Sequence record: NZ_CP118102.1
Direction: 5' to 3' (one strand)
DNA from: a plasmid
Length of the DNA stretch: 64,000 nucleotides
In this document: piece after piece, positions 4,901-63,883 of the stretch
How the letters are laid out: each line of letters starts with the position of its first letter
Numbering within the stretch: position 1 is the first letter of the stretch
Position numbers and translations under genes: made by a program
Notes under the pieces: generated by a model
Databases searched by the model: none
Seen by the model: only the letters and a program-made list of their open reading frames with translations
Told to the model about the DNA's origin: nothing

Positions 4901-5277
4901 GCCAATTCTCCCGTTCTCGAAGTTTCAAATGTCTCATCTGCAAGCTCCCAGTTAAAATCAAAAGGTTTAATTCTAATGTCTTTAATCTTACGGCTCGAAC
5001 CAAACGTAAATTCATATGTTCCACCATCTACAACTGCGACTGTATCTCCTGGTTTATGGCCGCCGCCAGTCCATTGCCCCGAATTGTTTTTCCAAACCTC
5101 GTAATATACCATCCCTACGAAGTAGTATAGATTCGGATTGTCCTCGTCCTGAAGAAGGCGATTTGAGCTAATTGGAAAAACTGCTGCCTCGGCCTTCCCT
5201 GGATGAAGTGTAAACACGACGAGAATAGAAGATAGAATAAGTACCGCACTGAGTAAGGAGCTCATCATCTTTTTCAT
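1954..5277 (-). CDS. large secreted surface/adhesin-like protein with short collagen-like G-X-Y tract
   Basis: 1107 aa. N-terminal signal peptide 'MKKMMSSLLSAVLILSSILVVFTLHPGKAEA'. Collagen-like triplets 'GQPGPPGPNGEP' and Pro-rich linkers 'PPSPPNPIIAPPGSFGG'. It is the last gene of the Tad-like operon. Confidence 0.45.
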   Translation of the reverse strand: MKKMMSSLLSAVLILSSILVVFTLHPGKAEAAVFPISSNRLLQDEDNPNLYYFVGMVYYEVWKNNSGQWTGGGHKPGDTVAVVDGGTYEFTFGSSRKIKDIRIKPFDFNWELADETFETSRTGELAVNRKQYYQDATSTRNYNNYRNTPVVGKGTNVGQKEVFVLNGTLEAVKQVDRRLEEETENGQVFGENVEGWRYFFPTLFTIELEPEEGKAIVQHWTTTGQRLNNIDGFQDREEKLEKNVDYRFTHTPGTEEYTYVGHKKSTVAPPSGGEITPGDPSGFKYDATFPIYYVNFYYKKEGNPPPPDPEIPEASCTAPTPGTTIDGRYMDPVVTAKILADQRGSEQFDVLQGIPTSESLYGNILARNYLAQHSFVQMSGVCTFTVNVEKTWTLHWDPGQPGPPGPNGEPTTIPDPQQTPETVVQQYTVERPYSYWVIDNLEVYKIDEGQLKNYALPGDQISITPQGYKPPEFTVDQTGAFYPPSPPNPIIAPPGSFGGSSYSSPPSPPSENLQSVAEEGVKKVEVTNDSLVFNGATIMSGSRVDESGPTPSTIPEPPQINENVLYKPGNIISSSKTNRANTTSSGTIYYGLMEGNINGGSNKNFPIYGINTVTVHTPVVNYSSVTDDREHNQKTNPNYNRAAFILDRPFTVRIPTNGQHTNYPGYGNRDYAKYFRTKQVQFPFDVYNSSRTQFYPKNTWIDIPVNQLDTEFFLPVWVDEGDYQVYFRNIAENAPPELPYQYDANLDLVNHVAVDEVSIEVIGRLYDFQVTDIADYNWESVFRTQIGSTLPTGLSYWVGMNGIDGAPRGNSEQYTLPILPGSHPAEGYKNVAVKTGYHFKFDFKTKGNMFGKEDGIRITPTFHFVSKDGQYRFPVDLYYKTNESNFVKIGSEEDKVQRYVIMNDRLRNVPTEEMIDTASFKFDNYYTTGQLGSMTKQEYTEQFISKDTKQKTPVGGYNLLLLPEQLRTFIGPKTNLPASVNVQRANAAVQNWYGEYSLPAEPYVVEVGTDIAEYGRTHGGLDDNSPIFFKNGYIIVNFDIETIRNGDLNKPHLQYINAPLMNQWQLEGSQRIKFDSFGNRFTLQDGDVVFYHADLSSRDDFSPQVPF

Positions 5278-40765: not shown

Positions 40766-41521
40766 TTGGAAAACTTTTGTCACGCTAATAAGGGAGGAGT
40801 AATAGAAATGTCGTATTCGGTCTTAAACCAATCCGCTGTTAAAGAAGCCAGAAGCGTCTATTTTCATAGTTGTGACGTAAGTCGGCTCTCAGTTAAGGAT
40901 TTACTGATAGTTATCCTTGAGCCGATCGTGAAAAGCCGATCCATCTCTGCTGTAGTAGATGATATCCTGCAGAATGGGCTGCCATATCTCGGAACCTTAT
41001 CCGAGTTTGAATTATCGGTTCTTTTCGATCTGAACGAGAAACAGAGTTTCCAGTTGATGTCGATCTTTGAGTTGGCAAAGCGCATGAATACTTCTGTTGC
41101 TACTGAAGAGGTCATCATTCGATCTCCTGTAGACGCGAGATATGCCGTTCAAGATCTTAAATATTTGGATCGTGAACATTTCGTTACCCTTTATCTTAAC
41201 ACTAAGAACCGAGTGATTGGTCGTGAGACGGTATCTATCGGATCTTTGAATGCAACTTTAGTACATCCAAGAGAAGTATTTAAAGGGGCAATTCGAAAAG
41301 GTGCAGCGAGTGTTATTTTCGCTCATAACCATCCAAGTGGTAATCCTGAACCTAGCATAGAGGACATCAGCCTTACTGAAAGAATGGTGGAAGCCGGCGT
41401 AATCATAGGTATTGATGTACTGGACCATATAATCATTGGTGGAGATAAATATTACAGCATGAAGGAGAAAGGCAGACTTCCTATTCTTAAAGAAGCAAGT
41501 AATAAAGGAAGTATTGTTTGA
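40766..41521 (+). CDS. radC: RadC-family JAB/MPN domain protein
   Basis: 251 aa. 'VIFAHNHPSGNPEPSIEDISLT' is the RadC HxHPSG metalloprotease-like motif. Confidence 0.8.
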   Translation: MENFCHANKGGVIEMSYSVLNQSAVKEARSVYFHSCDVSRLSVKDLLIVILEPIVKSRSISAVVDDILQNGLPYLGTLSEFELSVLFDLNEKQSFQLMSIFELAKRMNTSVATEEVIIRSPVDARYAVQDLKYLDREHFVTLYLNTKNRVIGRETVSIGSLNATLVHPREVFKGAIRKGAASVIFAHNHPSGNPEPSIEDISLTERMVEAGVIIGIDVLDHIIIGGDKYYSMKEKGRLPILKEASNKGSIV

Positions 41522-43469: not shown

Positions 43470-44042
43470 ATGGCCTGTTCAGGAGGAGAAAAAGAAAGAT
43501 TCTGTAATTACTCGATATCCTGCAGATGCACGTGTCGAACCTAGTAGGGATATAAACAAACTTGTTAAAGAAATTCTCTCCGGTGATAAACCTAAGAGAA
43601 AACAAATTTGGAAATTTTAAAAAAATATCAGAACGGTTGTCGATTATCGGCAGCCGTTTTTTTGATAGATTAATAGTATAAAACCCTTCAGGCCGGACAT
43701 GCTGATAGATAACGCATTTCGGCTGGAGGTATTGGATATGGGTAAATGGTTTAAAAAACAAAAAAGCGTTATTACAAAGATACCTGTTGGAGAAAGAGTT
43801 GGCCCGACTAAAGAGCTACAAGAGATCATGAAGAAGGCTGAGAAAATCTTAGGTAAAAAGATTAATGGAGATAAGAATAGGCGGTGATTGGAACATGCAA
43901 AATGGAAGAGTTATACCCTTCACTAAGGAGCCTAAAAGGGTGAGGTTCTTAACCCAGCAAGAGATCACGAGAGCAAATCAGACGAAGAGAGAAGATGTTT
44001 TGAGAAAGTTAGATGAGAAAGACAACAACGTAAAATATAATG

Positions 44043-44085
44043 AAAAAAAACACTAAAGGTGTACGGGAACGTACACTTTTTTTGT
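44043..44085 (+). terminator. terminator-like hairpin, copy A of a 43-bp direct repeat
   Basis: 'ctaaagGTGTACGggaaCGTACACtttttttgtgtctcctttt'. Nearly identical to 49544-49589. Confidence 0.55.
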
Positions 44086-44469
44086 GTCTCCTTTTCGGCC
44101 TAAATGTGTAATAAGTCGACGATTTGAACTGTTAGTAACGAGAGGAATTTCCATTGGAACTTTAGTAACTTATTGGAATTCATCTAAAAAAGTATTAAAA
44201 TAAATCTATTGTCCTAAGTGGCGAGATTAGAGATAACATTTTTTTAAAAAAACTACTTCATTTTACTCCATTTGAACTCCAGCTAATTTGAAAGTGCTAC
44301 TTTTGTCCTTAAATAAAGAACGCTATATTCTCGAAATATGAATCCGGAAAGTGCTAAATTACCATTACCAACTGATGATGTTACCGAAAATAAAAAAACA
44401 TAAACTAAGATAGTATTAAAATATCAAACTAGATATTACAAGCAGTCTACTCTACTAGGAGGTATTGTT

Positions 44470-46244
44470 TTGAAACTTATAAGTCTAGAGATAGAGAATT
44501 TTCGAAACTTTGGTGAAGTGAAAATAAGTTTAACAAATCAAAATGTTATTTTTGGGATGAATGATGTAGGAAAAACCAATTTCATGTTCGCATTAAGATT
44601 CTTGCTAGATAAAGAAATTAGAAAGAATGGCTTTATGATTTCCGATTACTATAAGAATAACATTGAGGAAATTATTAGGATTACATTAGGAGTAGACTTG
44701 TCAGATCGAGAAAATAATGATGATTCAAAACATATTATATCAAAAGTTGGCGGAGCTCGGTCTAGCGATGAATTAGATAAGTTTTATTTTCAAATTGAGG
44801 GTGTTTATGATAAGAGTGAAGAGATTGGAATACCGAAAATGTACTGGGGAAACAATCTAGAAAAACTCATAGAGATTGGTCATAATGGATATTTTAGTAT
44901 CATCGACAATTTATTCAAAGTTGTATATGTCGATCCTGTCATTGATTTAGAAAAAACTTTTTCGAAAAATCGAACTAGATTGTTTAATCAAGCAAAACTG
45001 GATGATTCGGATATAGAAATTTCAAATCAAATTAAGGAATTAGCTAATTTACTGAACACCAAAATAAGTAGTATGAGCTTAATTCAATCTTTTCAAACGA
45101 CTATTACTGAAGAATATAAAAAGTTGAAGAACGAGCATATAAACATTGAAATGAAGTCAGAATTATCTATAAGCGGGTATTTTAGCAATCTAATACCATA
45201 TATTAAAAGAGACAATGATGATAATATTTATCCAACTTCAGGTGATGGTAGAAAAAAAATATTAGCATATTCTATATTAAATCACTTAATACAGTTACAA
45301 GAAGGAAATAAAATAATAATTTATTTAATTGAAGAACCAGAAAATAGCCTACATAGATCTATGCAAATAGCACTCTCTAAGCAATTATTCAATTCAAAAG
45401 TATATAATTATTTTTTCTTATCAACACATTCATCGGAATTACTGTATGAAATGGATAATGCCTCTTTGATAAGGGTGTATTCGCAAAGTGGTACTCTTTG
45501 TGAATCTTATATTTATCATGTTGACGAGGAATATAAAAACGTAAAAAGGAACTAAATCGTTCTTTGGCAACAGCTTTATTTGCAGATAAAGTATTACTTG
45601 TAGAAGGACCCTCGGAGAAAGTGTTATTTGAAAAAATATTAGAGGAAGTACATCCTACTTATGAGTTAGATGGGGGATTTTTATTAGATGTTAGTGGAAT
45701 TAAGTTTAAGCCATACGTAGAGGTATTGCGTGGATTAAATATTACCGTTTTTGTTAAAACGGATAATGATCTAAAGTCTAAAAGAAATCAACCCAAGATA
45801 TTTGATTTAATAGGTATCCAGAGGTGCTTGAACCTTCTGGAGGCTACTGAAGAAGAGAAAGACCCCATAGAACCGATTGAAATTGATTACTACACAGAAA
45901 ACGAGGATGGAAAAAAAGTTTTTAAACAAAAAGGAAAAGACCAACTGATTAAAACGAAGAAACTCGAACTTTTCAAACAATATAAATCTGAAATTCAGTT
46001 AATGAAAGATAACGGTATATACCTATCAAAAATTGATTTAGAACATGACCTGTATGAAGCCATCGGTGGGACAATGGAGACAGCATTAGGTTCTGATCCG
46101 ATAAAATATCTACAGGATCATAAACTAATTAATATGATAGAACTAACAAATCATCTATCGAAAGATGATTGTATCAATATTATCAAACACCCCTTATTTG
46201 AAGCCTTAAGAAAGTTGGTGTCAGATGAGATCGAGATTGGTTGA
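44470..46244 (+). pseudogene. gajA: Gabija GajA (OLD-family ATPase + Toprim nuclease) interrupted by a frameshift in an A-tract
   Basis: ORF 44470-45555 is the ABC-type ATPase half ('IFGMNDVGKTNFMFALRFLLDKEIRKNGF', Walker B 'IIYLIEEPENSLH'). ORF 45564-46244 is the Toprim half ('KVLLVEGPSEKVLFEKIL', 'KTDNDLKS'). Reading through 'aaaaacgtaaaaagg' (45535-45550) in the +1 frame gives a continuous 'EYKNVKRKELNRSLATALFADKVLLVEG'. Confidence 0.7.
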
Positions 46245-47754
46245 TCAGGAAGCTAGAGATAAAATACTAGAAGATGATAACAGTATTCTAGTATCGGCAA
46301 GCGCTGGTTCTGGTAAAACTACAATTATGGTACAGAAAATGGGCATAGAATTAAGTAAAATAACTGACCATAAAACAATTGCTGCTATTACTTTTACCGT
46401 TAAGGCAACAGAGGAAATAAAAAGGAAAGCTCAACAATCTATAAAGAAACCATTTGTAGTTATGACAAACGATTCATTTATCGAAAATGAAATAACAAGA
46501 CCATTTCTTAAAGATGCATTTGGATCTGAATACTCAGAGGATTATTCTGTTGAATATGGAAACAGATATAAGTTTACTGTTGCTTCAGAAGGTCTTATGC
46601 AAATCAAACAGAGAAAGATTTTGGGAACTTTTTTTGACAACAAAAAAAATTTTAAATTTAAACTTGCCCTTGCAATAATAAGTAAATCTGTAGCTGCACA
46701 GGAATATATTAAATCAAAATATGCAACTATTTTTATAGACGAATATCAAGATTCAGATCAAGATATGCATCGGTTTTTCATGTACTTAAAAAACGAGCTG
46801 AAAATAAAAATCTTTATAGTCGGAGATGCGAAACAGGCCATCTATATGTGGCGTGGAGCAATGAGTAATATCTTTGAACTCCTTAGCAAAGAAAGATTTA
46901 GTTGTTATGAGCTCGTGACAAACTTCAGATGTCATAAAGACATTGAAAACTACGCTAATATCTTTCATAACCCACAATACTTTAACATACAAAAAGATAC
47001 CGTTCATAATGTTATTCTGAAAAATTATCAATCTAGATATATTAATGAGTTCCCAGAGTCATTTACACAATTGATTGATGATGATTTTATTGATCTAAAT
47101 AAAGAAATAGCCATAATCTCAAATATTAATAGAGACGCAAAAAAAATCGCAGAGTTGTTAAATGAAAAAGGGTTCGATTTCGTTTTTGTTCCTAAAACTC
47201 CAATTGATGAAGGATTACCTAATGGATTTCTATTGAAAGAGTTGGCTATGTTTACTAAAAACACTGCTTATACAATTTATGATTTCATGGAAAAAGTAGG
47301 GGGTGAAGAACGAAGCCAGAGAAGAGTAGAGATAAATAAAATCATTGGTGACTTAAAGAACAAAGATAATTTAATTAAAAGTAAAATAGGAGAAATAATA
47401 AACAACCTAGGTGTTTTTTTAGGACTTTCGATTGGTATTGATGAGGTAACAAAGTTTTATGAAAGTGTAAGCGACCCACAGTTTGACATGGCCTTTCAAA
47501 TGAGGGATAAGAAACACAAAGTTATGACAGTATTTGGGTCAAAAGGGCTTGAATTTGATCAAGTAATTAGTTTCACTCGTTATTATGAAATCTATAACAA
47601 TACAAATATGCAAAATCATTATGTCTGTGTAACAAGAGCAAAGGAGAAATTTGTAATGTTTGTAGATGATGTAAATTATCATAAACATGTATTAAGCTCA
47701 GCAACGAAACACGGACTGACCAATGCAGAGAAGTTGTTTAAATACATCGAATAA
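46225..47754 (+). CDS. gajB: Gabija GajB (UvrD/PcrA-like superfamily 1 helicase)
   Basis: 509 aa. Motif I 'ILVSASAGSGKTT' and motif II 'IFIDEYQDSDQ'. Overlaps the gajA 3' end by 20 nt. Confidence 0.8.
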   Translation: MRSRLVDQEARDKILEDDNSILVSASAGSGKTTIMVQKMGIELSKITDHKTIAAITFTVKATEEIKRKAQQSIKKPFVVMTNDSFIENEITRPFLKDAFGSEYSEDYSVEYGNRYKFTVASEGLMQIKQRKILGTFFDNKKNFKFKLALAIISKSVAAQEYIKSKYATIFIDEYQDSDQDMHRFFMYLKNELKIKIFIVGDAKQAIYMWRGAMSNIFELLSKERFSCYELVTNFRCHKDIENYANIFHNPQYFNIQKDTVHNVILKNYQSRYINEFPESFTQLIDDDFIDLNKEIAIISNINRDAKKIAELLNEKGFDFVFVPKTPIDEGLPNGFLLKELAMFTKNTAYTIYDFMEKVGGEERSQRRVEINKIIGDLKNKDNLIKSKIGEIINNLGVFLGLSIGIDEVTKFYESVSDPQFDMAFQMRDKKHKVMTVFGSKGLEFDQVISFTRYYEIYNNTNMQNHYVCVTRAKEKFVMFVDDVNYHKHVLSSATKHGLTNAEKLFKYIE

Positions 47755-47977
47755 CACTTTAGTGAAACCACTTCTAATTTTATGACTCAAAAAAGAAAAA
47801 TCGTACAATGTGTTCCGATCAAGTCAAACCATAGAATTAACAGTCTGCATATATGTCCTGGATTATTTAATACAATGAATAGTTTTGATATTTAAGGAGT
47901 AGAGGTATCTTTACTCCACTTCTGCCTCTCGAACAAACAATATAGTAATGATCAGCATAGGAAAAGAGGATTGACGT

Positions 47978-49303
47978 ATGGACTTAGGTATGTACGAAAA
48001 AGATTTAATAAATATACGTTTGATTCTAGAACAAACTGAACAGATTGATCACCAAACTATAATTGAGAAATATAGAAATTACTCCCGTAAAGGTGCAATT
48101 ACATGTCCTTTTTGTGGAGAAAAATTAAAATTAAGGGCAGGAGAGATTAGAGATATACACTTCAGTCACCCAGTCGGCAAAACATGTATGAAAGCAAAAG
48201 CATACGATACATACCAAAGACAAACTTTTAGAGAAAATGAAAAACACTCCGTTATGAAGGAAATCATTTATACAGAACTTAAGGGACAAGAGCGATTTAA
48301 AAATGACCTTAAAGTTGAGTATGGTTACTTGGAAAAGGCAGAAGAAAAATGGAACATATATCCAGATATATATTTAAAGAAGGGAGATCGGGAGTTTGCG
48401 CTAAATATTATAACTAACATACAACAAATAGGAGATGAAAAAGTAGTAAATAATATTCACCGTAGAAATAGTTATTTTAAAAATAAAGGGTTAGAGATTA
48501 TATGGTTTATTGAAGAAAGAGAACTAGCAGATGATTTTGTTAATCGGGTGCTTCATCTATGGGAAGCAGAATATAATCTAGCTATGAAAACACGAGAGGA
48601 CCATATTTGGGATGAACATATTAGAGAACTTTCACTAAAATATCCCGAATATAAACTACCTGAAGTTTTCGGTTATAAATCTCAGAATGAAGCATTGCCG
48701 TTAGAGGTGCATAGTCTTTATTATATACGCTCCTTACAAGAGGGAATGGAGTTTACTGTACATCGCCTTATATTAGATAACAAAATAGCTCCTTTTCGAG
48801 CTTTTGCCTTAACAAAAAGCTACCCTTTGAAACTATCTTATGCCTTGAGCATCGACACAGAGATTTCTCTTAGTGATAAAGAACAAGAAAACTTAAATAG
48901 AAAGGAATTTGAAGAAGAGTTTATAGATAAAATCAATAATCAGATCACCAATGATAATTATGTCGGATATTCAGATTTATCAGAGTTTTCTTTCTCTTCT
49001 GTAAATTTTAATCCGTATGAACGTACAGTTATATCAGACGAAGCAACTCGTAAAATAATTCAAGAAGATGAATTAGAAAACAAAAGAGAATCACATAATC
49101 CGGATTACTACCTTAAACAAATTATAAATTTTACTATAACTGATGAAGAAGCAAGACATTTTTACGAAGGATTAGCAAGCCGACATGTAGATTTAGCTAC
49201 TCATAATTTACGATTAGATAATATTTGTAATGCTATAGAGTCTTTTAGTTCTTTTTGTAATAATGAAGCGAGAGTGTGGTTGGATAAGATCCTACGTTTG
49301 TAG
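47978..49303 (+). CDS. CoiA-like family protein
   Basis: 441 aa. 'ITCPFCGEKLKLRAGEIRDIHFSHPVGKTC' matches the CoiA N-terminal Zn-finger/'HFAH' signature (CPxCxxxLxL...HFxH). Confidence 0.5.
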   Translation: MDLGMYEKDLINIRLILEQTEQIDHQTIIEKYRNYSRKGAITCPFCGEKLKLRAGEIRDIHFSHPVGKTCMKAKAYDTYQRQTFRENEKHSVMKEIIYTELKGQERFKNDLKVEYGYLEKAEEKWNIYPDIYLKKGDREFALNIITNIQQIGDEKVVNNIHRRNSYFKNKGLEIIWFIEERELADDFVNRVLHLWEAEYNLAMKTREDHIWDEHIRELSLKYPEYKLPEVFGYKSQNEALPLEVHSLYYIRSLQEGMEFTVHRLILDNKIAPFRAFALTKSYPLKLSYALSIDTEISLSDKEQENLNRKEFEEEFIDKINNQITNDNYVGYSDLSEFSFSSVNFNPYERTVISDEATRKIIQEDELENKRESHNPDYYLKQIINFTITDEEARHFYEGLASRHVDLATHNLRLDNICNAIESFSSFCNNEARVWLDKILRL

Positions 49304-49537
49304 CCTCGAACTTTTTGTGAGGCTACATTTACATCACTGTATTTTTTGGGCTAGGATCCATGCAAAAAGACGGAAAAGTATCAATATGTAATCGTTTCTA
49401 TTGCATCTTTACTTTCAGCTTTTCGTTACTATATAATTAGCATATTGTTTAGTAACATTCTTATTTTTCTTGCCGTCAATTTCGGCGAGAATAGGTCATG
49501 CAGCTTCTGCTGTTCTATAAACATTTGTACTTTTTAA

Positions 49538-49589
49538 GGAGACGCTAAAGTGTACGGGAGACGTACGCTTTTTTTGCGTCTCTTTTTTT
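49538..49589 (+). terminator. terminator-like hairpin, copy B of the 43-bp direct repeat
   Basis: 'GGAGACGCtaaagtGTACGggagaCGTACgctttttttGCGTCTCttttttt'. A nested hairpin plus a T-run. Confidence 0.55.
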
Positions 49590-52223: not shown

Positions 52224-53051
52224 ATGGCACTGAAAAACAATGTTGTACAGACGGGTCTACGATACTTCGGAGGTAAGGCAAAACTTGCGCATTCAATTAT
52301 TCCTTACCTACCTGACCATCATTGCTGGGTTGATTTATTCGGCGGGGCTGCCAATATGACGATTGCCCGTGAGCCCAGTAAAGTTGAGGTGTTTAATGAT
52401 AAAGACGGAGATCTTATCAATTTTTATATGATGCTGCGGCAGCAAAAGGAGCAACTGATAGAAGACCTAGCCTCTTTGCCAACGAGCCGTTTTTTATATG
52501 AGACCTGGCTTCGTGAAGAAATGCCGGAGGACCCATATGAACGCGCTGTTCGATACTTCTATCTGCTCAGACAAAGCATCATTCCTATGCCTAATCAACC
52601 GAGCGGCTGGCGTGCTGGAAGAGTAAAGAACTGCGCTTCAGATTACCAGTCATCGATACTCAAGTTGGACTCTTTTGAGAAACGCTTCCGCAATGTCATG
52701 ATTGAATGCTTAGACTACCGAGAAATCATAAAACGTTATGATGGACCAGAGGTGTTCTTTTTTATTGATCCTCCTTATGTTGGCCGTGAGAATTGCTACA
52801 AAGGTGGTTTCCGGCAAGAGGATCATGTGGAACTAGCTGAGATGCTTAAGCATATAGAGGGGAAGTGCCTTGTTACCTATTATGGTGACCCGCTTGTGCT
52901 TGAGCTTTATAAAGATTGGAATTACGTGACCTTAGAAGCGAAGGTTGGTTCTGTTGTGAAAGCATCAGAAGGCCAAAAACGTAGGACAGAAACCGAGTAT
53001 CTGTTTATGAACTATTCACCTACTATGTCAGGACAGATTTCATTCTTCTAA
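52224..53051 (+). CDS. dam: Dam-family N6-adenine DNA methyltransferase
   Basis: 275 aa. The N-terminal 'LRYFGGKAKLAHSIIPYLPDHHCWVDLFGGAANM' is the AdoMet motif and 'FFFIDPPYVGRE' is the DPPY catalytic motif (D12 class). Confidence 0.8.
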   Translation: MALKNNVVQTGLRYFGGKAKLAHSIIPYLPDHHCWVDLFGGAANMTIAREPSKVEVFNDKDGDLINFYMMLRQQKEQLIEDLASLPTSRFLYETWLREEMPEDPYERAVRYFYLLRQSIIPMPNQPSGWRAGRVKNCASDYQSSILKLDSFEKRFRNVMIECLDYREIIKRYDGPEVFFFIDPPYVGRENCYKGGFRQEDHVELAEMLKHIEGKCLVTYYGDPLVLELYKDWNYVTLEAKVGSVVKASEGQKRRTETEYLFMNYSPTMSGQISFF

Positions 53052-53155: not shown

Positions 53156-54772
53156 GTGGTATTTGCAATCAAACCTGAAGTTAAGACGGAACATACGGTA
53201 GCTCATCTATTTGGCGGAGCAGGCGGCGGCTCTCTTGGTTTCGCTCAGGCACGAGCAGAATATATGGGATACGTCGGACGTTTTCGAACACTCTGCAGCA
53301 TTGATGCTGACCCGGTTGTTTGTCAAAACTATGAGCTAATTACAGGTGGTAAGGCCGTATGTATGGATTTGTTTTCAAGAGAACAGTACATAGATTTTCA
53401 CGGAGATGAACCGCCGAATCATTGGCATGAGGCCACGCCTGGTGATCTATGGGACGCATTTGGTTGGGAAGTACCTGATGTAATTTTTACATCTCCTCCA
53501 TGCAAGGGTTTTTCGGGTCTGCTGCCTGAAAAATCAGCAAAAACAAAGAAGTACCAGGCTCTCAACATGCTAACAATCCGTGGTCTAGAAATAGCGCTTA
53601 AAGCTTGTCTCGAGTACGGTGGACATCTTCCAGCGCTCATCTTGCTTGAGAATGTGCCTCGCATTATGACCAGAGGAAAGCAGATTCTTGATCGAATCAA
53701 AAAGCTATTGCAGTCATTTGGCTATATTACCAGCGATAATACTCACGATTGTGGGGAGTTAGGTGGTCTGGCGGAACGGAGAAAGAGATATCTCTTAATC
53801 TCCAGACAAGAAAAGCGTGTGAAAAATTTTGTCTATCAGCCTCCACGCAGGCCATTAAAAACAATTGGAGATGTTATCAAAGATTTACCATTTCCAGGTG
53901 ATACAGTCGCAGCAGGACCGCTTCACCGGCTTCCTAAACTTGAGTGGAAGACATGGATGCGTCTTGCGCCGATTCCTGCCGGCGGAGATTGGAGAGATTT
54001 AAATAAGCTCGATTGGTGGAACTATCGAGTTCAACACGAGCCTAGACGAGGGGCTTGGGCAGTTGAAGATTGGAACAGTGTTTCTAGAACAATCACAGGA
54101 GGAGCTGGGCCTGGCAGGAGCAATGGAGCTTCAGCCGTATCTGATCCTCGAATGGGTTTAAACGAAGGAAGTACGCATCGTTCCATTTACCGTATGTCTC
54201 AATGGGATGAGGCTTCCCAAACGGTGACAGGCGCTGTAGGGCCGAATAATGGAGCTATTTGCGTAAATGATCCTCGTCTTAAAGAACGGAAGGGGAGACA
54301 CCCTGGGGTGTATCAAGTTGTTAGACATGATGAGCCTTCCCCATGTGTGACCGGAACCCGGTTCGGCAGCGGTGCCTTGGCTTTCTCTGACCCAAGGAAT
54401 GCTGCACCTTCCAATGTTCTAAACGGTACAGAGGATGGAACATTTCCTGCAGATCAGGATCGAGGCGTGTACCTCATCATTGCTGAAGACGGTACTTGGC
54501 ATCGTCCACTTACGACTTACGAATTAGCGATGTTGCAATCTTTCCCTGCTCATTTGCCTAATGGTATGCCTTTCCAGCTTGTTGGCTGCAGTGATGCAAA
54601 GGCTCGGGAGTATATAGGAAATGCGGTACCTCCGGAAGCAGCTAAAGCAATGGGGACAACCTTCCTTGTTGCTTTGATGGCGGCTTCTGTAGATGCCGGC
54701 TTTACGCTGAGCTATGAGGCTGTTTGGGTTCGTAATGAATCAGAACAGCAGTCAGAAGCAATCTTACATTAA
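53156..54772 (+). CDS. DNA cytosine-5 methyltransferase with enlarged, internally repeated variable (TRD) region
   Basis: 538 aa. Motif I 'HLFGGAGGGSLGF', motif IV 'TSPPCKGFSG', motif VI 'LLENVP' and motif X 'YIGNAVPP'. The region between ~aa 300 and 430 holds three tandem modules: 'ITGGAGPGRSNGASAVSDPR', 'VTGAVGPNNGAICVNDPR' and 'VTGTRFGSGALAFSDPR'. Confidence 0.8.
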   Translation: MVFAIKPEVKTEHTVAHLFGGAGGGSLGFAQARAEYMGYVGRFRTLCSIDADPVVCQNYELITGGKAVCMDLFSREQYIDFHGDEPPNHWHEATPGDLWDAFGWEVPDVIFTSPPCKGFSGLLPEKSAKTKKYQALNMLTIRGLEIALKACLEYGGHLPALILLENVPRIMTRGKQILDRIKKLLQSFGYITSDNTHDCGELGGLAERRKRYLLISRQEKRVKNFVYQPPRRPLKTIGDVIKDLPFPGDTVAAGPLHRLPKLEWKTWMRLAPIPAGGDWRDLNKLDWWNYRVQHEPRRGAWAVEDWNSVSRTITGGAGPGRSNGASAVSDPRMGLNEGSTHRSIYRMSQWDEASQTVTGAVGPNNGAICVNDPRLKERKGRHPGVYQVVRHDEPSPCVTGTRFGSGALAFSDPRNAAPSNVLNGTEDGTFPADQDRGVYLIIAEDGTWHRPLTTYELAMLQSFPAHLPNGMPFQLVGCSDAKAREYIGNAVPPEAAKAMGTTFLVALMAASVDAGFTLSYEAVWVRNESEQQSEAILH

Positions 54773-56365: not shown

Positions 56366-59300
56366 TTATTGATTTCTCCAATACTTCATCCCAGCTTTAG
56401 GTTTGTAATATGTTCTTATGTGACCTTTTCTATCTAATACTCCGAATTCATTTGTTTTTGGATTGTAATAGAGTCGATCTCCATTTGCTCTTGATTTCTT
56501 TAATACGTTCCGGCCATTTTTTGCTTTGAAGAATTTGTTAGCTTTTGTTGAGTATGCCCCTAAACTAAGTTTTTTAGCACCAAATTCATTCAAGTGGTGT
56601 TTATGAGCATTAGCAAATTTCATATTTCTAAAATTATAGTTCTTAGATTTAGATTTAGAAACTCTTCGAGCTGTGTAAGTAGCCTGTTTCGCTAATTTTT
56701 TTGGAGCTTGTTTCTTTAAATAATACTTCACTCCAATTTTAACTAATATAAATGTTACTTGAATTATAGAAAAGGGATTATCGCCATCATGGTCAACCAA
56801 ATTCACTGGATTATTATCACTATATGAATATTTATTCTGGTTAATTGGTGAAGCACTATCTCCAGAATGTGAATCCATAGTTAGGAACACAGCTAGATCT
56901 GGATCATAATATCTCGCTGATAACAGATATAAACCAGTTTCATCATCATAGCGATATCCTGCGTAACGATAAGGGTTAACATCAGCAAGTTCACCACTTT
57001 GGGATATTATATTTCCCCAAGCATCGTAATCATAAGAAGCAACTATGTTTCCTGAATTATCAGTTAAACTGACTACGTCCCCGTGACCATTTAAGTGATA
57101 GTAATATGTTTGTCCTTCAAATATAAATGCAACTGGTACGTCACTTTCATCCCATATATATTCAATTACTATATTCCCGGATTCATCAGTTTCGTAGATA
57201 ACTTTATCATCTTGGTAGAAATAGTTGCGTTTTTTATTTTTCGTCTCAGTACTGATACGTTTTCCATTATTATCATATCTAGCACTAAATATAGTAACAT
57301 TATCAGTGTCCTTAATTTCCGTTAACTGATCAAAAACGTTATAAACATATACGTTTTGATTATCTTTAACTAAGTTACCATTCCGATCATACTCAAAAGC
57401 GGTACCATTAAATGTACTAATTTGATTAACTTTATTAAAAGTTAACTCATTGGTGGTAACATCGGAACCCTTTGTTACTTTTTTAGTATCTCGATTACCC
57501 GTGAAATCATACGAATACTCAATTTTAGTACCATCAGTCAACGTTTCTGAAATCAACTGACTAAGGTTGTTATACTCGTATTCAACAGTTCCAGTGGAAG
57601 CAGTTACTGACTTAATCAGATTATTTTGGTCATAGGTATAATTGTATTCGTTGATGGCTGTTCCATCAGAACGATAATTTGCATAACCAGTTAAATTTTT
57701 AGCTTTATCATATTCAGTTTTTGTTGTTGCCCCATTACCTAGAGTAATATTTTTGAGGTCATCAGCGGTGTCATAACCATAGCTAATAATTTTAGTATTA
57801 TTGAAATACAGATCTGTGAGTCTATCAAACTCATCGTAATTATAGTTAATTACGGAGTCAATAGCATTAACAGAGTACGTTAGAGACTTAACTTCCCCAT
57901 TTTCAAAATATAGATATTTTTTTGAACTTCCTCTATCTATTTCTGAATCAATAGAACCACTATCCGTGTACTTAATAACTTTTTCGTCATCGTTAATGGT
58001 TTCCAAATTTCCATTCGGATCATATGTGTATGAGTAGAGAACATTGTCATTTTCTTTGGTGGCAACCAATTGATTCAATTCGTTATAAACATAGGTAAAA
58101 ATCCTGCCATTCGGAGTCTTAGTTTCAATAAGATTACCATTAGAATCATATTTATTATTTGTAGTGTTGCCCAAGGCATCTGTAGACGATAAGATCTGCC
58201 CAGTTCCATTGTAAGTATTTACCTCAACACTACCATTTGGATATGTTGTTCTTAAAAGGTTACGATTATTATCGTAGTCATACGTAGTAACCTGTTTGTT
58301 TGCATCAGTAACTTTTACAAGTTCATTTTGTTGATTATATTCATAATAACTCGTATTTCCCTTACCATCAGTTTTGCTTAATTCATTCCCTTGTTTATCT
58401 GTTACCGATATTGTAATATTTCCATTCCCATCGGTTGTAGTTAATACTTCATTCCCAACTGCATTGTAAGAGTATGAATCCATAGATCCATCGGGTTTAT
58501 CAACAGTTTTTAAGTTTCCATATTGATCATAGGTATGCTTTGTTACCTGACCTTTTGAATCAGTAATGGTATCAACTTTACCCTTATCATTATAAGCATA
58601 GGTTATAACATTCCCACTTGGATCTGTTTCTGTAGAAACAAAATTTAAAGAATTATACGTGTATTTTGTTGTTCGATTTTCTTCATCAGTCTTCTCAAGA
58701 ACATTACCGTATGAATCATATTTTTGAATATATTTCTTGCCGGTAGAATCAATAAATATCTCTGGATTATAGTTTGTATCATATTCAACCTGTTCTTCTG
58801 TTCCGTCTGCATAAACAATTGATGTAGGGGTATAATTGCTATCCATGTGATACTCAGTTACATTACCTAGAGCATCCGCAACATAAGAGGTTCTTCCAGC
58901 AAATTGATAGCTTTTTCCCGGTCGTTCTAAACCATCTACACCAGAAACGTCTGTCGATGGCTCCTGAACTTTAGCAACATATTCATTCTCATAAGTAAAG
59001 TCTGTCCTGCGGTTATTAGGATCAATAACTGTAGTAAGGTAACCTTCTGGGCTGTAACCATATTTTGTTCGGTTATAAGTTCCGTCAGTAGAATACTGAT
59101 CCACCGAAACAAGTCTTTTATTAATATCGTAATTGTAATCTGTTTTTTGTCCTTCTAACATCGCATAGTCAACTAAACCACTCGTTGTATAAGTGAATAC
59201 TAGTTCTCTACCCGTAGCATCGACTATACCAGTTAACTTTCCATCTGTTGAATATTTGTATTCAAGTTTATTTCCATATAGATCCTGTTCATAGCTTATT

Positions 59301-61237
59301 CTTGCAGTCACTACACTAAGTTCGTTATCTATATTTACAGTATCAAAATGAGTAATATATCCATTTTTATCAGTAATGGTATATCCTGTTGTTCCTTTGT
59401 TTTGATCCGTTACTTTTGTTAACGTTAGGTATTTACCTGGTGGAGAAATATACTTCTTTGTAGATTGGTCATATTTGAAATAATGAGATGTTCCATCAGG
59501 TTCTGTATAAAGAACATTCCCTGTTTTATAAGCATCATAGATGCTTTCGTACCCGTTATAAACCCATCCATATCCAAAAGGTGTTAATTCTACTGATTTA
59601 GAATTATATGTTCTACCAAATACTAGAGCAGTATCCCCCCGTGAATCTAGATTATAATCTGTATACTGAATAACGTTATTACCAGTGCCCAAGTTGACGT
59701 TGCTAGTTCCTTCTCCCAAACTAATGCCATCAAAAGTCCAATAATCTTCCAATCCTAGACGACTTGCTGAAGTGTAGGTCACACTAAGAAGAGGAGTATT
59801 TTTTGTGTTAGCGGTATCATCACCGGAAATAAATTTTTTATAGGTATTTGTGGTTTCAGATGAACTTTTGAGTAAAAAACCTAAATTCGAATCGGGATTA
59901 TTAATCCACTTTTCCATCATGTACGGTGTGAGAGACCACTTATAATTGACATCCAAAGATGTAAGAGTATCTACATATGCAGTAGAAACTTGGGAGGCAT
60001 TAAAATCTCCGCCTTGAGAATTCCACTGTGTCCCGGCATCAGAGTACATCCATGAAGCTGAATATTCTGTCCATGGTGTGCTTATTGAATGCAAGGTTAC
60101 ATTCATACCAGTGTCATTAGATACTGAAGCCAACCATAAATTTAAATCAGCTGTTAAAACATTTGCTCCTTGAGGAATTGAACTAGTATCAAATCTAATT
60201 AATGAACGAATAATATTATCTTGGGTAGCGTCTTTGTATAAACCTACCCCTAAGGTTGTTTCTGTTGGTGCTGTCTGTTTTGGGAATGCACTTCGAATGT
60301 TTGTATCAGAAAGTGCATATTGGGGCTGATATTTAACTATTGTAGGATCTAAAGTTACTGGATAGACCCTCTTGTCACTGAGCAACCATTCCTGATTGGG
60401 GATCAGGTCTATATACAACTGATTATTTTCAGATCTCAAATCGTACTTAATATCATATGATATAGCTTCTTCTGGTATAGTAGATATTTCTTCGTTCTCT
60501 TTGTATCCATTAGGTTTAAACGAATCATACATAATAGGTGCTTCAATATAATACTTTATATCACCTGACTCTTTATCTAATAAAAGGATTGAGCCATTCT
60601 CTCGTTGCTTGTATGTTAAATTACCTAAATCTAATGAGAAGGTATAGATAACCGGTGTTTCCAGGTTAGCAGGTTTATCTTTTAAAATTATCTCCTCTTT
60701 AATACGATCGTTACCCAAGGAATATTTTAGATCCGCATTCTCAAAAACTTCTGGATAGATTACAGTATTGTTGGAAACTTCCGCATCTATGGCAGTTTCT
60801 ATTTCGGAGTAAGTAGTATTAGTAACCAATTCCTCCTTCATTGGAGTTAAATTTATCTCATAGTTATTTTCTGAAATTTCAAGTAGGTTGTCTTCGGAAG
60901 TGTGTTGTTTATCTAGCTTTACATGAAAAGAGTGGGCGTTATTGTAAATAGATGTATTATTCTCTTTAAGAGTTGGTTTCCATTTCTCTATGTTTTCATC
61001 AAAGTAATGGATCGGTGTTGGAGAGATATCCGTTGTTAATGTACCATTGCTGTTTAGGTATGTTTTTGAATATTCACTTCGTTTTCCTATTAATTCCTGC
61101 CTTTCATTTTTGATATTTACGACATCAGATGTCTTGTTATCTTTAACTTCTGCTATCGCTTTTGGATTAATTGCTGTTGAGGTCAATAATGAACCTGCCA
61201 TTACAAGAATAATGGACTTTTGAAATAACCTATTCAT
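56366..61237 (-). CDS. secreted Rhs/YD-repeat polymorphic toxin (WapA-like) with variable basic C-terminal toxin domain
   Basis: 1623 aa with signal peptide 'MNRLFQKSIILVMAGSLLTSTAINPKAIA'. Dozens of YD repeats ('YTYDANGN', 'YEYDALGN', 'YDYDNNRN' and so on). Rhs core boundary 'RYAGYRYDDETGLYLLSARYYDPDLAVFLTMD'. The last ~170 aa are a distinct Lys/Arg-rich domain. Confidence 0.85.
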   Translation of the reverse strand: MNRLFQKSIILVMAGSLLTSTAINPKAIAEVKDNKTSDVVNIKNERQELIGKRSEYSKTYLNSNGTLTTDISPTPIHYFDENIEKWKPTLKENNTSIYNNAHSFHVKLDKQHTSEDNLLEISENNYEINLTPMKEELVTNTTYSEIETAIDAEVSNNTVIYPEVFENADLKYSLGNDRIKEEIILKDKPANLETPVIYTFSLDLGNLTYKQRENGSILLLDKESGDIKYYIEAPIMYDSFKPNGYKENEEISTIPEEAISYDIKYDLRSENNQLYIDLIPNQEWLLSDKRVYPVTLDPTIVKYQPQYALSDTNIRSAFPKQTAPTETTLGVGLYKDATQDNIIRSLIRFDTSSIPQGANVLTADLNLWLASVSNDTGMNVTLHSISTPWTEYSASWMYSDAGTQWNSQGGDFNASQVSTAYVDTLTSLDVNYKWSLTPYMMEKWINNPDSNLGFLLKSSSETTNTYKKFISGDDTANTKNTPLLSVTYTSASRLGLEDYWTFDGISLGEGTSNVNLGTGNNVIQYTDYNLDSRGDTALVFGRTYNSKSVELTPFGYGWVYNGYESIYDAYKTGNVLYTEPDGTSHYFKYDQSTKKYISPPGKYLTLTKVTDQNKGTTGYTITDKNGYITHFDTVNIDNELSVVTARISYEQDLYGNKLEYKYSTDGKLTGIVDATGRELVFTYTTSGLVDYAMLEGQKTDYNYDINKRLVSVDQYSTDGTYNRTKYGYSPEGYLTTVIDPNNRRTDFTYENEYVAKVQEPSTDVSGVDGLERPGKSYQFAGRTSYVADALGNVTEYHMDSNYTPTSIVYADGTEEQVEYDTNYNPEIFIDSTGKKYIQKYDSYGNVLEKTDEENRTTKYTYNSLNFVSTETDPSGNVITYAYNDKGKVDTITDSKGQVTKHTYDQYGNLKTVDKPDGSMDSYSYNAVGNEVLTTTDGNGNITISVTDKQGNELSKTDGKGNTSYYEYNQQNELVKVTDANKQVTTYDYDNNRNLLRTTYPNGSVEVNTYNGTGQILSSTDALGNTTNNKYDSNGNLIETKTPNGRIFTYVYNELNQLVATKENDNVLYSYTYDPNGNLETINDDEKVIKYTDSGSIDSEIDRGSSKKYLYFENGEVKSLTYSVNAIDSVINYNYDEFDRLTDLYFNNTKIISYGYDTADDLKNITLGNGATTKTEYDKAKNLTGYANYRSDGTAINEYNYTYDQNNLIKSVTASTGTVEYEYNNLSQLISETLTDGTKIEYSYDFTGNRDTKKVTKGSDVTTNELTFNKVNQISTFNGTAFEYDRNGNLVKDNQNVYVYNVFDQLTEIKDTDNVTIFSARYDNNGKRISTETKNKKRNYFYQDDKVIYETDESGNIVIEYIWDESDVPVAFIFEGQTYYYHLNGHGDVVSLTDNSGNIVASYDYDAWGNIISQSGELADVNPYRYAGYRYDDETGLYLLSARYYDPDLAVFLTMDSHSGDSASPINQNKYSYSDNNPVNLVDHDGDNPFSIIQVTFILVKIGVKYYLKKQAPKKLAKQATYTARRVSKSKSKNYNFRNMKFANAHKHHLNEFGAKKLSLGAYSTKANKFFKAKNGRNVLKKSRANGDRLYYNPKTNEFGVLDRKGHIRTYYKPKAGMKYWRNQ

Positions 61238-61706: not shown

Positions 61707-61994
61707 ATGAGCAATTTGCAAACCGTCATTGAAGACGACGGAATGAAGATGCTTAGAGTATACAGAGCTGGGCAATTGATACTCTGTTTACCTGAAGTAA
61801 ATCGAATTGCGACATTAGAAAATCAGATTAATACGGAAACTTTCGATACGATCGAGGAAGTAGTGGCGTTTATCGGAAGTAGAGAGCAGTGTTGTAGCAG
61901 ATCTTACTCACTGCATCTGATCTTGAGAGCATATGAGTTCGTTAACGAACACTACATCAAGCTTTATTACTACATTCATTCTTCGGGATGTTAG
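61707..61994 (+). CDS. small hypothetical protein
   Basis: 95 aa with an RBS 'ataggaggag'. Overlaps the start of the downstream PP-loop gene. Confidence 0.3.
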   Translation: MSNLQTVIEDDGMKMLRVYRAGQLILCLPEVNRIATLENQINTETFDTIEEVVAFIGSREQCCSRSYSLHLILRAYEFVNEHYIKLYYYIHSSGC

Positions 61995-63883
61995 CAGAGG
62001 GGGATATAAACATGGAAACTTATGAATTAGTCGAAAACACAACAAAGATTGGGATTCAAAATCGGCTGAAGGACTATAACTCTGTGATCTTAGATACCTG
62101 GGATTACCTTGAAGCTGTTGGTTTTTCATTTCATGGGGTCGTTCGAGACTGGACTGCAATTTTTGAGAAGGGTGTATACTTTGCAATCCATCATTTCGTT
62201 AAAGATCGACCCGATTTGGATTGTTTAGCACCGGATAGCGGCTTTTCATGGAAGGATTTATTTCAAGGCGATTCTGTCTCAGGAGCGCTTTTTTTGTTTC
62301 TGGAAAAATCAGGATTTAATTTATGGATGCCTGAACAGGCAGCTATAGACGCTTTGGTTGCTACTACAGTGACGGATGACTCTTACATGTTTGGCAGAAA
62401 CAATTATCCTTCCATGAGTGATTGGAGCTACACGAGTCCAAAGCACAAATTCCAGGTCTACGGATTCCATCGATCCTGCGCTGTACTTATTGAAATTTAC
62501 GCGCTCAATATTCCTCCTTATGGTGCGAGTAAAGACCAGCTACCGTTTCCAGAGGATCGCTGCCAGCCATCTTTCGATATATTTGATCTGGCAACCGGCG
62601 CTTCGCAAAAGCGTACACAGCGAGCGATCGCGGGGGAAACTTTGGATTTCCTTGAGAAAGTAGATGATGAACTATTAGCTGTAACAAGAGCCAAGATCAA
62701 GAAGATCTATGATGAGCACTCTATCATCGGATTATTAAATTCCGGTGGTGTTGATTCAAGGCTTACGCTGCAGCTGATGATAGAGCATGCAATAAAGAAC
62801 CCCGATCCGTCTAAAGGAATCATGGTCATATCAGCTGATACGTTAGTGGAGAACCCAGGCGTTAAACAAATTATTCATGAGCTTCGAGATGCTTTAGGCA
62901 GGGCTTTTCCATGGATTGAGTATCACATCGTTGAACCACGAGAGGATAATACCCTGCTCGTATGCATCATCGGTAAGGGATACCAAGCCCCTTCCGTCTC
63001 CTTCAAATACTGTGTTCGTCGTCTTAAGATTGAGCCGGCGAGAGAGTTCCTTGAGGCAATGTTTTTGGCTGAAGGAGCTGAAGACACGGTGCTGGTGCTT
63101 GGTTCGAGAGACAATGAGAGTGTAATGAGAAAACGCAGCCTTTCGAAGCATTTTGGTGAAGACTTTTATGGGCATCATCCTGTAGGCAATATTCGTACAG
63201 CCTCACCTATTCGAGATTGGACGAAGCAGGAAGTCGTCACGTATTTAGCGTTCAACCGGGGACCATGGAAGAAGGGAGCTCGTAATACAGAGCTTCTAGC
63301 CTTTTATGGCAATGCAGCCGGCAGTGAGTGTCCTCTTGGTGCTGCCGTTGTTAATGACAATGAAGCCATGATGCAGTGCGGTAAGTCGGCAAGAATGGGC
63401 TGTTACCTGTGCACCATATCTCAAGACAAGAGTATGGGAAATCTGATCTCCACTCATCCGGAGTACGAAAAATATTACAAATTCCGTAGAATCCTTAAAG
63501 CGATCGGTCAGGATATTCGATATGGAGGTATCACTGGGGTTCAAAGGATAGGTAAGTCTAAAATCGGAAGTGGTATCGGAGATCTAACGATAGATTGTCG
63601 AACACATCTCCTGCAGACGATGGCCAGACTCGATATTGAGTGGCGCAAGAGTGAGATTATCACCGCGTACCAAATGGTATTAGAACGAGAAATGGTTGAG
63701 GGATTCCCAGTAACGGAGAGGTTCCGTGATGCAATATTTCAGTTGATCGCTGTATCTGGTTCTATGAAGAATTTCTTTGGTCACTCTGTATTCGATCCAT
63801 ACGGAACAGGAGTTGACCAAGTTACAGAGGAAGACAACGAAGCTATAAAGAGAATACTTGAAAAGAGAAGAAATATGATCTGA
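61988..63883 (+). CDS. PP-loop ATP-pyrophosphatase of the PAPS-reductase/DndC-like family with N-terminal extension
   Basis: 631 aa. PP-loop 'IIGLLNSGGVDSRLT', 'VLVLGSRDNESVMRKR' and Cys cluster 'ECPLGAAV...CGKSARMGCYLCT', which resembles the DndC Fe-S region. The ~230-aa N-terminal domain has no similarity I recognise. Confidence 0.5.
   Translation: MLAEGDINMETYELVENTTKIGIQNRLKDYNSVILDTWDYLEAVGFSFHGVVRDWTAIFEKGVYFAIHHFVKDRPDLDCLAPDSGFSWKDLFQGDSVSGALFLFLEKSGFNLWMPEQAAIDALVATTVTDDSYMFGRNNYPSMSDWSYTSPKHKFQVYGFHRSCAVLIEIYALNIPPYGASKDQLPFPEDRCQPSFDIFDLATGASQKRTQRAIAGETLDFLEKVDDELLAVTRAKIKKIYDEHSIIGLLNSGGVDSRLTLQLMIEHAIKNPDPSKGIMVISADTLVENPGVKQIIHELRDALGRAFPWIEYHIVEPREDNTLLVCIIGKGYQAPSVSFKYCVRRLKIEPAREFLEAMFLAEGAEDTVLVLGSRDNESVMRKRSLSKHFGEDFYGHHPVGNIRTASPIRDWTKQEVVTYLAFNRGPWKKGARNTELLAFYGNAAGSECPLGAAVVNDNEAMMQCGKSARMGCYLCTISQDKSMGNLISTHPEYEKYYKFRRILKAIGQDIRYGGITGVQRIGKSKIGSGIGDLTIDCRTHLLQTMARLDIEWRKSEIITAYQMVLEREMVEGFPVTERFRDAIFQLIAVSGSMKNFFGHSVFDPYGTGVDQVTEEDNEAIKRILEKRRNMI

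What the first reader, a model, noticed from the sequence alone, without database searches (positions are those of the whole stretch)
44470..47754. Gabija defence system with GajA split by an A-tract frameshift
The two ORFs 44470-45555 and 45564-46244 together reconstitute a full-length GajA (OLD-family ATPase + Toprim), and GajB (UvrD-like) follows with an overlapping start. The break sits exactly in 'aaaaacgtaaaaagg'. A +1 shift restores the conserved junction '...KELNRSLATALFADKVLLVEGPSE'. This could be a homopolymer sequencing error, a genuinely inactivated system (for example decay after autoimmunity), or a phase-variable switch.
Basis: partly seen in the sequence, partly recalled or inferred. 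Interest (0 to 1): 0.6.

Follow-up and report, generated by a model that had tools for sequence, protein, structure and literature searches.

The report
Gabija operon with frameshifted gajA
This is an ordinary two-gene Gabija anti-phage system on a Paenibacillus urinalis conjugative megaplasmid. In this one strain it has lost a single A from an A6 run, which cuts the GajA nuclease in two and most likely switches the system off.

Summary
ORF 44470-45555 is the ABC-ATPase part of GajA. ORF 45564-46244 (frame open from 45537) is its Toprim nuclease part. gajB (46225-47754) follows with a 20-nt overlap.

The two GajA pieces match one PADLOC GajA profile end to end (positions 1-360 and 358-573 of 574). 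Joined, they align colinearly with the solved Bacillus cereus GajA, and all catalytic residues are kept.

The break is a 1-bp deletion in GTA AAA AAG GAA: A6 has become A5 at 45543-45547. The intact 591-aa allele is otherwise identical over 3.5 kb. It occurs in plasmid CP118110 and on at least 24 contigs (8 shown, from 8 different samples).

The A5 allele is limited to the window's strain. It is reproduced in contigs assembled independently from two SRA runs, so an assembly artefact is unlikely.

It is not a conserved recoding site: relatives are uninterrupted and the downstream hairpin is not conserved. It does not look like a phase-variation locus either: the tract is short, homopolymers are not enriched, and it is OFF in one lineage only.

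The best reading is a very recent, genuine loss-of-function mutation in a known system. Interest is low.

The parts
44457..44462 (+). Shine-Dalgarno AGGAGG, 7 nt upstream of the gajA TTG start
   Evidence: Sequence read directly.
44470..45555 (+). gajA 5' fragment, 361 aa: complete ABC-ATPase with dimerisation insert. It ends ...NVK-RN-stop after the frameshift.
   Evidence: PADLOC GajA PDLC00081 positions 1-360/574, E 1.7e-160. Pfam AAA_15 and DUF2813. Identical to GenBank WDH85425.1.
45543..45547 (+). Mutated homopolymer: A5 here, A6 in the intact allele (GTA AAA AAG GAA = V358 K359 K360 E361). This is the 1-bp deletion that causes the frameshift.
   Evidence: It is the only difference from CP118110 in 3.5 kb. 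A6 is present in L003-L014. Relatives are uninterrupted at this site.
45537..46244 (+). gajA 3' fragment: Toprim nuclease domain. The frame is open from 45537 and the first possible start is TTG 45564, 9 nt after the upstream stop. Catalytic E379 and D432/D434 are retained.
   Evidence: PADLOC PDLC00081 positions 358-573/574, E 1.3e-74. Pfam OLD-like_TOPRIM. Residue check.
46225..47754 (+). gajB: intact UvrD-like SF1 helicase, 509 aa. Its ATG overlaps the end of gajA by 20 nt.
   Evidence: PADLOC GajB PDLC00122 E 1.3e-182. Pfam UvrD-helicase. The same 20-nt overlap occurs in L019-L021.
44055..44080 (+). Terminator-like hairpin closing the upstream unit. It marks the left edge of the low-GC island that carries Gabija.
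49547..49571 (+). Terminator-like hairpin similar in sequence to the one at 44055. It marks the right edge of the low-GC island. No terminator-like site lies between the gajB stop (47754) and this point on the + strand except a weak one inside the CoiA-like gene.

Best explanation
The locus is a canonical Gabija system (GajA, an OLD-family ATPase-Toprim nuclease, plus GajB, a UvrD-like helicase). It lies in a low-GC cargo island of a Paenibacillus urinalis conjugative megaplasmid.

In this strain a genuine 1-bp deletion shortened an A6 run to A5, in the codons for V358-K359-K360. These lie in the linker between the ATPase and Toprim domains. Translation from the gajA start therefore stops after 361 residues.

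Shown: the truncated product keeps the whole ATPase and dimerisation region but has no nuclease.

Inferred:
- The Toprim part can be made only by re-initiation at TTG 45564, if at all. An isolated Toprim fragment of B. cereus GajA has no nuclease activity in vitro.
- The system is therefore most likely non-functional.
- At most, a trace of wild-type protein could arise from occasional -1 slippage on A-AAA-AGG.
- The mutation is very recent, because no other change has accumulated in gajA or gajB.
For: - Gabija identity and colinearity of the two halves.
- A single-base difference from the intact allele over 3.5 kb.
- The intact, otherwise identical 591-aa protein is on at least 24 contigs; the 8 places shown come from 8 different samples.
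- The A5 allele is reproduced in Logan contigs from two separate SRA runs. L001 comes from a 90.7-kb contig and is 13086/13086 identical to the window, including its A8 and T8 runs. L002 also has A5.
- Against the two sister plasmids, the window's only homopolymer indel in 64 kb (404 runs of 5 or more) is this one. It sits alongside 8 shared SNPs (differences from both sister plasmids), so the window is a distinct lineage rather than a noisy assembly.
- Catalytic residues K35, H320, E379, D432, D434 and the equivalents of B. cereus D511 and K541 are all retained, and gajB is intact.
- GajA-CTR (residues 348-578) alone has no endonuclease activity: PMC8136825.
- The GajA-GajA and GajA-GajB interfaces lie in the ATPase part: PMC10781630.
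Against: - I could not see raw reads or run metadata.
- A sister public assembly (CP118105) clearly contains homopolymer errors, so the submitting pipeline is not error-free.
- Loss of function is inferred. Trans-complementation of the two fragments has not been tested.
Confidence: 0.75

Rival explanations
1. Sequencing or assembly artefact: the strain really has A6 and an intact gajA, and one A was lost in base-calling or polishing.
For: - The change is a 1-base homopolymer contraction, the classic long-read error.
- The sister assembly CP118105 has 5 private 1-bp indels and no private SNP over 64 kb. One of them is a different gajA frameshift (A6 to A7 at 45631).
- Logan contigs from SRR23401453 and SRR23401455 show contractions of runs of 7 or more bases.
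Against: - A5 is present in two independently assembled read sets. One gives a 90.7-kb contig identical to the window over 13 kb, with all longer runs in agreement.
- The noisy runs miscall only runs of 7 or more bases. In L005, which comes from a noisy run, this A6 site and the other A6 runs in the operon show no difference from the intact allele.
- The window has no other homopolymer discrepancy in 64 kb.
Confidence: 0.12
2. Phase-variable (contingency) switch: slipped-strand mispairing at the A run reversibly turns Gabija on and off.
For: - The frameshift lies in a homopolymer.
- A second public assembly is frameshifted in another A run 88 nt downstream.
- The operon is AT-rich, with ten runs of 6 or more bases.
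Against: - The tract is only 6 bases, below the lengths that give high switching rates (established knowledge).
- Longer A8 runs in the same operon are unchanged in reliable assemblies.
- The homopolymer count is no higher than in codon-order shuffles: 6 versus 6.3 for gajA and 5 versus 7.6 for gajB.
- At least 24 contigs are ON at this site and only one lineage is OFF.
- The second event is in an assembly with error-like indels in several unrelated genes.
Confidence: 0.04
3. The split allele is still functional or hypomorphic. Either -1 ribosomal slippage on A-AAA-AGG regenerates exact wild-type GajA, or the ATPase and Toprim fragments work as two chains, as AriA and AriB do in PARIS.
For: - A -1 slip of tRNA-Lys from AAA (45544-46) to AAA (45543-45) re-reads AAG GAA and gives the exact wild-type sequence.
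- A hairpin starts 9 nt downstream: -13.4 kcal/mol, z -2.25.
- TTG 45564 lies 9 nt after the stop, so re-initiation is conceivable.
- The N-terminal fragment also matches the full AriA profile at E 7.7e-19.
Against: - The requirement for a frameshift is not conserved. All relatives and all other P. urinalis contigs are uninterrupted.
- The hairpin's outer stem is not kept in relatives, and the consensus fold is only -5.4 kcal/mol.
- A-AAA-AGG is not a canonical X-XXY-YYZ heptamer.
- The Toprim-only GajA fragment is inactive in vitro (PMC8136825).
- The split is one mutation old, so there has been no selection for two-chain function.
Confidence: 0.07

Closest known systems
Bacillus cereus VD045 Gabija (GajA/GajB; PDB 8jq9, 8sm3, 8tk0, 8u7i)
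   Same: - The repaired GajA aligns over residues 1-586 with chain residues 1-575, E 6.7e-186.
- It has the same ATPase-dimerisation-Toprim layout and the same catalytic residues (K35, H320, E379, D432/D434).
- GajB follows immediately.
   Different: - Here gajA is interrupted by a 1-bp deletion, so the nuclease domain is not joined to the ATPase.
- There is a 13-residue insertion in the Toprim region.
- The system is plasmid-borne in Paenibacillus.
Intact P. urinalis allele WP_205055012.1 (plasmid CP118110, strain 2022CK-00829)
   Same: It is identical in DNA over 3.5 kb apart from the one A, and lies in the same plasmid context.
   Different: It has A6 instead of A5, giving a single 591-aa GajA.
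PARIS (AriA ATPase plus AriB Toprim as separate proteins)
   Same: - The ATPase and Toprim domains lie on two open reading frames.
- The N-terminal fragment matches the whole AriA profile (E 7.7e-19).
   Different: - The best matches by far are GajA models, and a GajB helicase follows.
- The split is a one-step mutation in a single strain, not an evolved two-gene arrangement.

Membership tests
Gabija (GajA/GajB) | [quoted passage not shown] | tested here: met
   The two fragments cover PADLOC GajA PDLC00081 positions 1-360 and 358-573 of 574. Pfam finds AAA_15/DUF2813 and OLD-like_TOPRIM.
Gabija (GajA/GajB) | GajA is encoded as one uninterrupted polypeptide | tested here: not met
   There is a stop at 45553-45555 after 361 codons, and the Toprim part is in another frame. 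The intact allele of the same plasmid family meets this feature.
Gabija (GajA/GajB) | Conserved ATP-binding and nuclease residues (B. cereus K35, H320, E379, D432/D434, D511, K541) | tested here: met
   Alignment to 8jq9 and residue check. All are present.
Gabija (GajA/GajB) | Adjacent downstream UvrD-like SF1 helicase GajB in the same operon | tested here: met
   PADLOC GajB E 1.3e-182 and Pfam UvrD-helicase. The 20-nt overlap with gajA is as in relatives.
Gabija (GajA/GajB) | 4:4 GajAB complex and protection against phage | not testable with these tools
   This needs biochemistry and phage assays. The literature basis is PMC10781630.
Phase-variable contingency locus | Long hypermutable repeat, with ON/OFF length variants recurring at the same tract among or within isolates | tested here: not met
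   The tract is A6/A5. One lineage is OFF and at least 24 contigs are ON. Homopolymers are not enriched.
Programmed -1 ribosomal frameshift | The frameshift requirement and the stimulatory structure are conserved in relatives | tested here: not met
   Relatives have uninterrupted ORFs. The downstream hairpin is not conserved.

The most novel reading that the evidence does not exclude
Loss-of-function frameshifts may arise repeatedly in Gabija on this megaplasmid because the active system is costly, through autoimmunity or conflict with the plasmid or a prophage.

Two credible independent events are seen among near-identical plasmids: gajA A6 to A5 in the window's strain, and a gajB 1-bp deletion at 47368 in SRR23290105.

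The truncated GajA keeps every GajA-GajA and GajA-GajB interface, so it could assemble a nuclease-less GajAB complex.
Probability: 0.1. Interest if true: 0.4.

Novelty: already known. Interest (0 to 1): 0.15.

Why it matters
The practical value is mainly in annotation:
- The two CDSs deposited as 'ATP-dependent nuclease' and 'ATP-dependent endonuclease' are one disrupted gajA.
- This strain should be scored as Gabija-defective when defence repertoires are counted.
- It also provides a natural isogenic pair (A5 versus A6 plasmids) for testing the cost and benefit of Gabija in Paenibacillus.

It does not reveal a new mechanism.

Tried and rejected
- Programmed -1 frameshifting. The single-sequence hairpin downstream of the slip site looked marginally stable. 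It is not conserved in four relatives, and no relative needs a frameshift. Rejected.
- Contingency-locus architecture. Homopolymer counts in gajA and gajB are no higher than in codon-order shuffles. Rejected.
- Recurrent frameshifts as evidence of selection. Of four further split alleles found by cluster look-up, the one in CP118105 and those in SRR23401453 lie in sequences full of homopolymer indels in unrelated genes, so they are probably errors. Only the gajB deletion in SRR23290105 looks credible. With three trustworthy private mutations in the region, enrichment in Gabija is not significant (about p 0.24 by length).
- A scan of genome contigs with the repaired protein returned only two loci, one of them irrelevant. 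It was of no use for a family-wide survey.
- Literature searches for the strains and accessions found nothing about them. One paper only mentions an unrelated gene of strain PUW25.
- The CoiA-like gene downstream as a third Gabija component. It is absent next to Gabija in three relatives and has no PADLOC hit. Rejected as a conserved partner.

Full report
**1. What is in the sequence**

ORF listing shows three ORFs on the + strand:
- 44470-45555: 361 aa, TTG start, 7 nt downstream of AGGAGG at 44457-44462.
- 45564-46244: 226 aa.
- 46225-47754: 509 aa.

The first two are in different frames. Frame 1 ends at TAA 45553-45555, and frame 3 is open from 45537.

PADLOC places the first ORF on GajA model PDLC00081 positions 1-360 of 574 (E 1.7e-160). 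The second, translated from 45537, falls on positions 358-573 of the same model (E 1.3e-74). The third is GajB (PDLC00122, E 1.3e-182). Pfam agrees: AAA_15/DUF2813, OLD-like_TOPRIM and UvrD-helicase.

Joining the frames in the A run gives a 591-aa protein. It aligns without a break across the junction to the solved B. cereus VD045 GajA (8jq9 and others; residues 1-586 versus 1-575, E 6.7e-186). K35, H320, E379, D432, D434 and the equivalents of D511 and K541 are all present. The observation and the Gabija call are therefore correct.

**2. The exact lesion**

The window comes from a Paenibacillus urinalis plasmid. The 361-aa and 226-aa products are GenBank WDH85425.1 and WDH85426.1, on a 227-kb record.

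Two sister plasmids from blood isolates match the region at 99.9% identity or better. CP118110 (strain 2022CK-00829) carries an intact 591-aa gene. Alignment shows one difference in 3.5 kb: GTAAAAAAGG (A6) there and GTAAAAAGG (A5, 45543-45547) here. So one A is missing from the codons GTA AAA AAG GAA (V358 K359 K360 E361).

For a ribosome it would be a -1 shift.

**3. Real or artefact**

Exact-sequence look-ups found the same 361+226 arrangement in contigs assembled independently from two SRA runs:
- L001, from a 90.7-kb contig of SRR23080378, is identical to the window at all 13,086 positions. This includes the A8 and T8 runs.
- L002 (SRR23401455) also has A5. It shows a T8 to T7 contraction elsewhere.
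- The sister run SRR23401453 (L005) has four contractions, all in runs of 7 or more bases. L005 shows no difference from the intact allele at this site or at the other A6 runs in the operon.

Over the full 64 kb, the window differs from both sister plasmids by:
- 8 shared SNPs;
- an (AT)n change;
- a 9-bp indel;
- a C indel at 4800, where the window has the intact ORF;
- this one homopolymer indel, among 404 runs of 5 or more bases.

That is the profile of a distinct lineage with a clean assembly.

CP118105 (strain 2022CK-00833) is different. It has five private 1-bp indels, four of them in runs of 5 or more bases, and no private SNP. At least three of these (A6 to A7 at 45631 in gajA, 27847 and 63070) disrupt genes. 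That is the signature of residual long-read errors. Its different gajA split (398+205 aa) should not be counted as biology.

I could not inspect reads or run metadata, so I leave about 0.12 for an artefact in the window itself.

**4. Population picture**

The intact 591-aa protein, identical in sequence, is on at least 24 contigs. The 8 places shown come from 8 different samples, and every locus retrieved has A6. The A5 allele is confined to the window's lineage.

One other credible loss-of-function event exists. A 74-kb contig from SRR23290105 has intact gajA but a 1-bp deletion at 47368 that truncates GajB at codon 382. One further contig has a gajB missense change, L312F.

Three trustworthy private mutations in about 5-10 kb all fall in Gabija, but the numbers are too small to claim selection.

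**5. Alternatives tested**

*Conserved recoding.* The nearest relatives (78-84% identity) are P. favisporus, a Logan contig and Saccharibacillus. All have uninterrupted genes with V-K-K-E-L-N at this site, and codons GTA AAA AAA, GTC AAA AAG and GTA AAA AAA. Among the 120 best homologues, full-length proteins of about 570-600 aa predominate; the shorter entries are few, and the window's own 361-aa fragment is the only N-terminal-only one. A hairpin 9 nt downstream of the slip site is marginal in the single sequence (-13.4 kcal/mol, z -2.25), and its outer stem is not conserved (consensus -5.4 kcal/mol). An evolved programmed frameshift is rejected.

*Residual leakiness.* This remains conceivable. 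A -1 slip of tRNA-Lys on A-AAA-AGG would recreate exactly the wild-type protein. This is inference only.

*Phase variation.* The tract is short. The longer A8 runs in the operon are stable in reliable assemblies. Runs of 6 or more bases are not enriched relative to codon-order shuffles (6 versus 6.3 ± 2.3 in gajA; 5 versus 7.6 ± 2.3 in gajB). Not supported.

**6. Consequence (inferred)**

The 361-aa product retains the whole ATPase and the dimerisation insert. According to the GajAB structures, these carry the GajA-GajA interfaces and the GajB-docking residues K94 and R97 (PMC10781630). The nuclease domain is lost from this chain.

A Toprim fragment could be made only by re-initiation at TTG 45564. 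For B. cereus GajA, the isolated Toprim fragment (residues 348-578) has no endonuclease activity (PMC8136825).

The most likely state is therefore a nuclease-dead Gabija, possibly with a nuclease-less GajA(N)-GajB assembly. The absence of any second change in gajA or gajB shows that the event is very recent.

**7. Context**

The operon sits in a low-GC island: about 29-33% GC from roughly 44000 to 49400, against 38-45% in the flanks. The operon itself is 30.5% GC and the window 38.3%.

The island is bracketed by two similar terminator-like hairpins, at 44055-44080 and 49547-49571.

It also holds a CoiA-like gene (47978-49303). This gene has no PADLOC hit and is not next to Gabija in three relatives.

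The surrounding plasmid encodes conjugation functions (T4SS ATPases, TcpE, a coupling protein, relaxases) and RadC. It also carries apparently orphan Dam-like and Dcm-like methyltransferases and a DndC-like protein.

**8. Verdict**

This is a known defence system with a strain-specific, probably genuine, single-base loss-of-function mutation. It is useful for annotation and as a natural isogenic control, but it is not novel.

Noticed in passing
window 44000-49400 (hairpins at 44055-44080 and 49547-49571): Gabija and a CoiA-like gene (47978-49303) form a low-GC island (about 30% versus about 40%). It is bracketed by two terminator-like hairpins that resemble each other over about 40 nt (CTAAAG(G)TGTACGGGA(A/G)ACGTAC(A/G)CTTTTTTTG(T/C)GTCTC). 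This may be a footprint of cassette insertion.
   Followed up: partly
window 45631-45636, corresponding to NZ_CP118105.1 (L004, L017, L018): The public plasmid CP118105 has a different gajA frameshift (A6 to A7, giving 398+205 aa). It also has four more private 1-bp indels that disrupt unrelated genes and no private SNP over 64 kb. These look like residual homopolymer errors in that record.
   Followed up: yes
window 47368 (L006, SRR23290105 contig of 74 kb): An independent 1-bp deletion (GATAATTT to GATATTT) truncates GajB at codon 382 in another sample whose gajA is intact. This is a second credible loss-of-function allele of the same operon.
   Followed up: partly
window 47160 (L008, SRR35133373): A single SNP gives GajB L312F. 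It is the only difference from the intact allele in that 9.8-kb locus.
   Followed up: no
window 4800 (ORF 1954-5277, minus strand): The window has an intact 1107-aa DUF5704-type ORF. Both sister plasmids carry an extra C (CTTCCTG versus CTTCTG) that splits it into two annotated CDSs.
   Followed up: partly
window 40683, upstream of or within the radC start (40766-41521): The (AT)n dinucleotide repeat differs by one unit between the window and the sister plasmids. Predicted RadC length varies between 251 and 237 aa among gene calls.
   Followed up: no
window 59950-61057 (ORF 56366-61237, minus strand, 1623 aa, DNRLRE-domain protein): Four SNPs and a 9-bp in-frame indel cluster within about 1.1 kb of this very large protein, relative to the sister plasmids. 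This is the most variable spot in the window.
   Followed up: no
window 52224-53051, 53156-54772, 61988-63883: Dam-like and Dcm-like methyltransferases and a DndC/PAPS-reductase-like protein lie here, with no restriction or Dnd partner recognised among the neighbouring ORFs scanned. This is typical plasmid anti-restriction cargo.
   Followed up: partly
L003 4242-4320 (intact allele; window equivalent 45541-45620): The intact allele carries A-AAA-AAG in register (the dnaX-type slippery heptamer), with GAGGA 12 nt upstream. A -1 slip there would give an ATPase-only product much like the window's truncated protein. The heptamer is explained by V-K-K codons in AT-rich DNA, and the downstream hairpin is not conserved.
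   Followed up: partly
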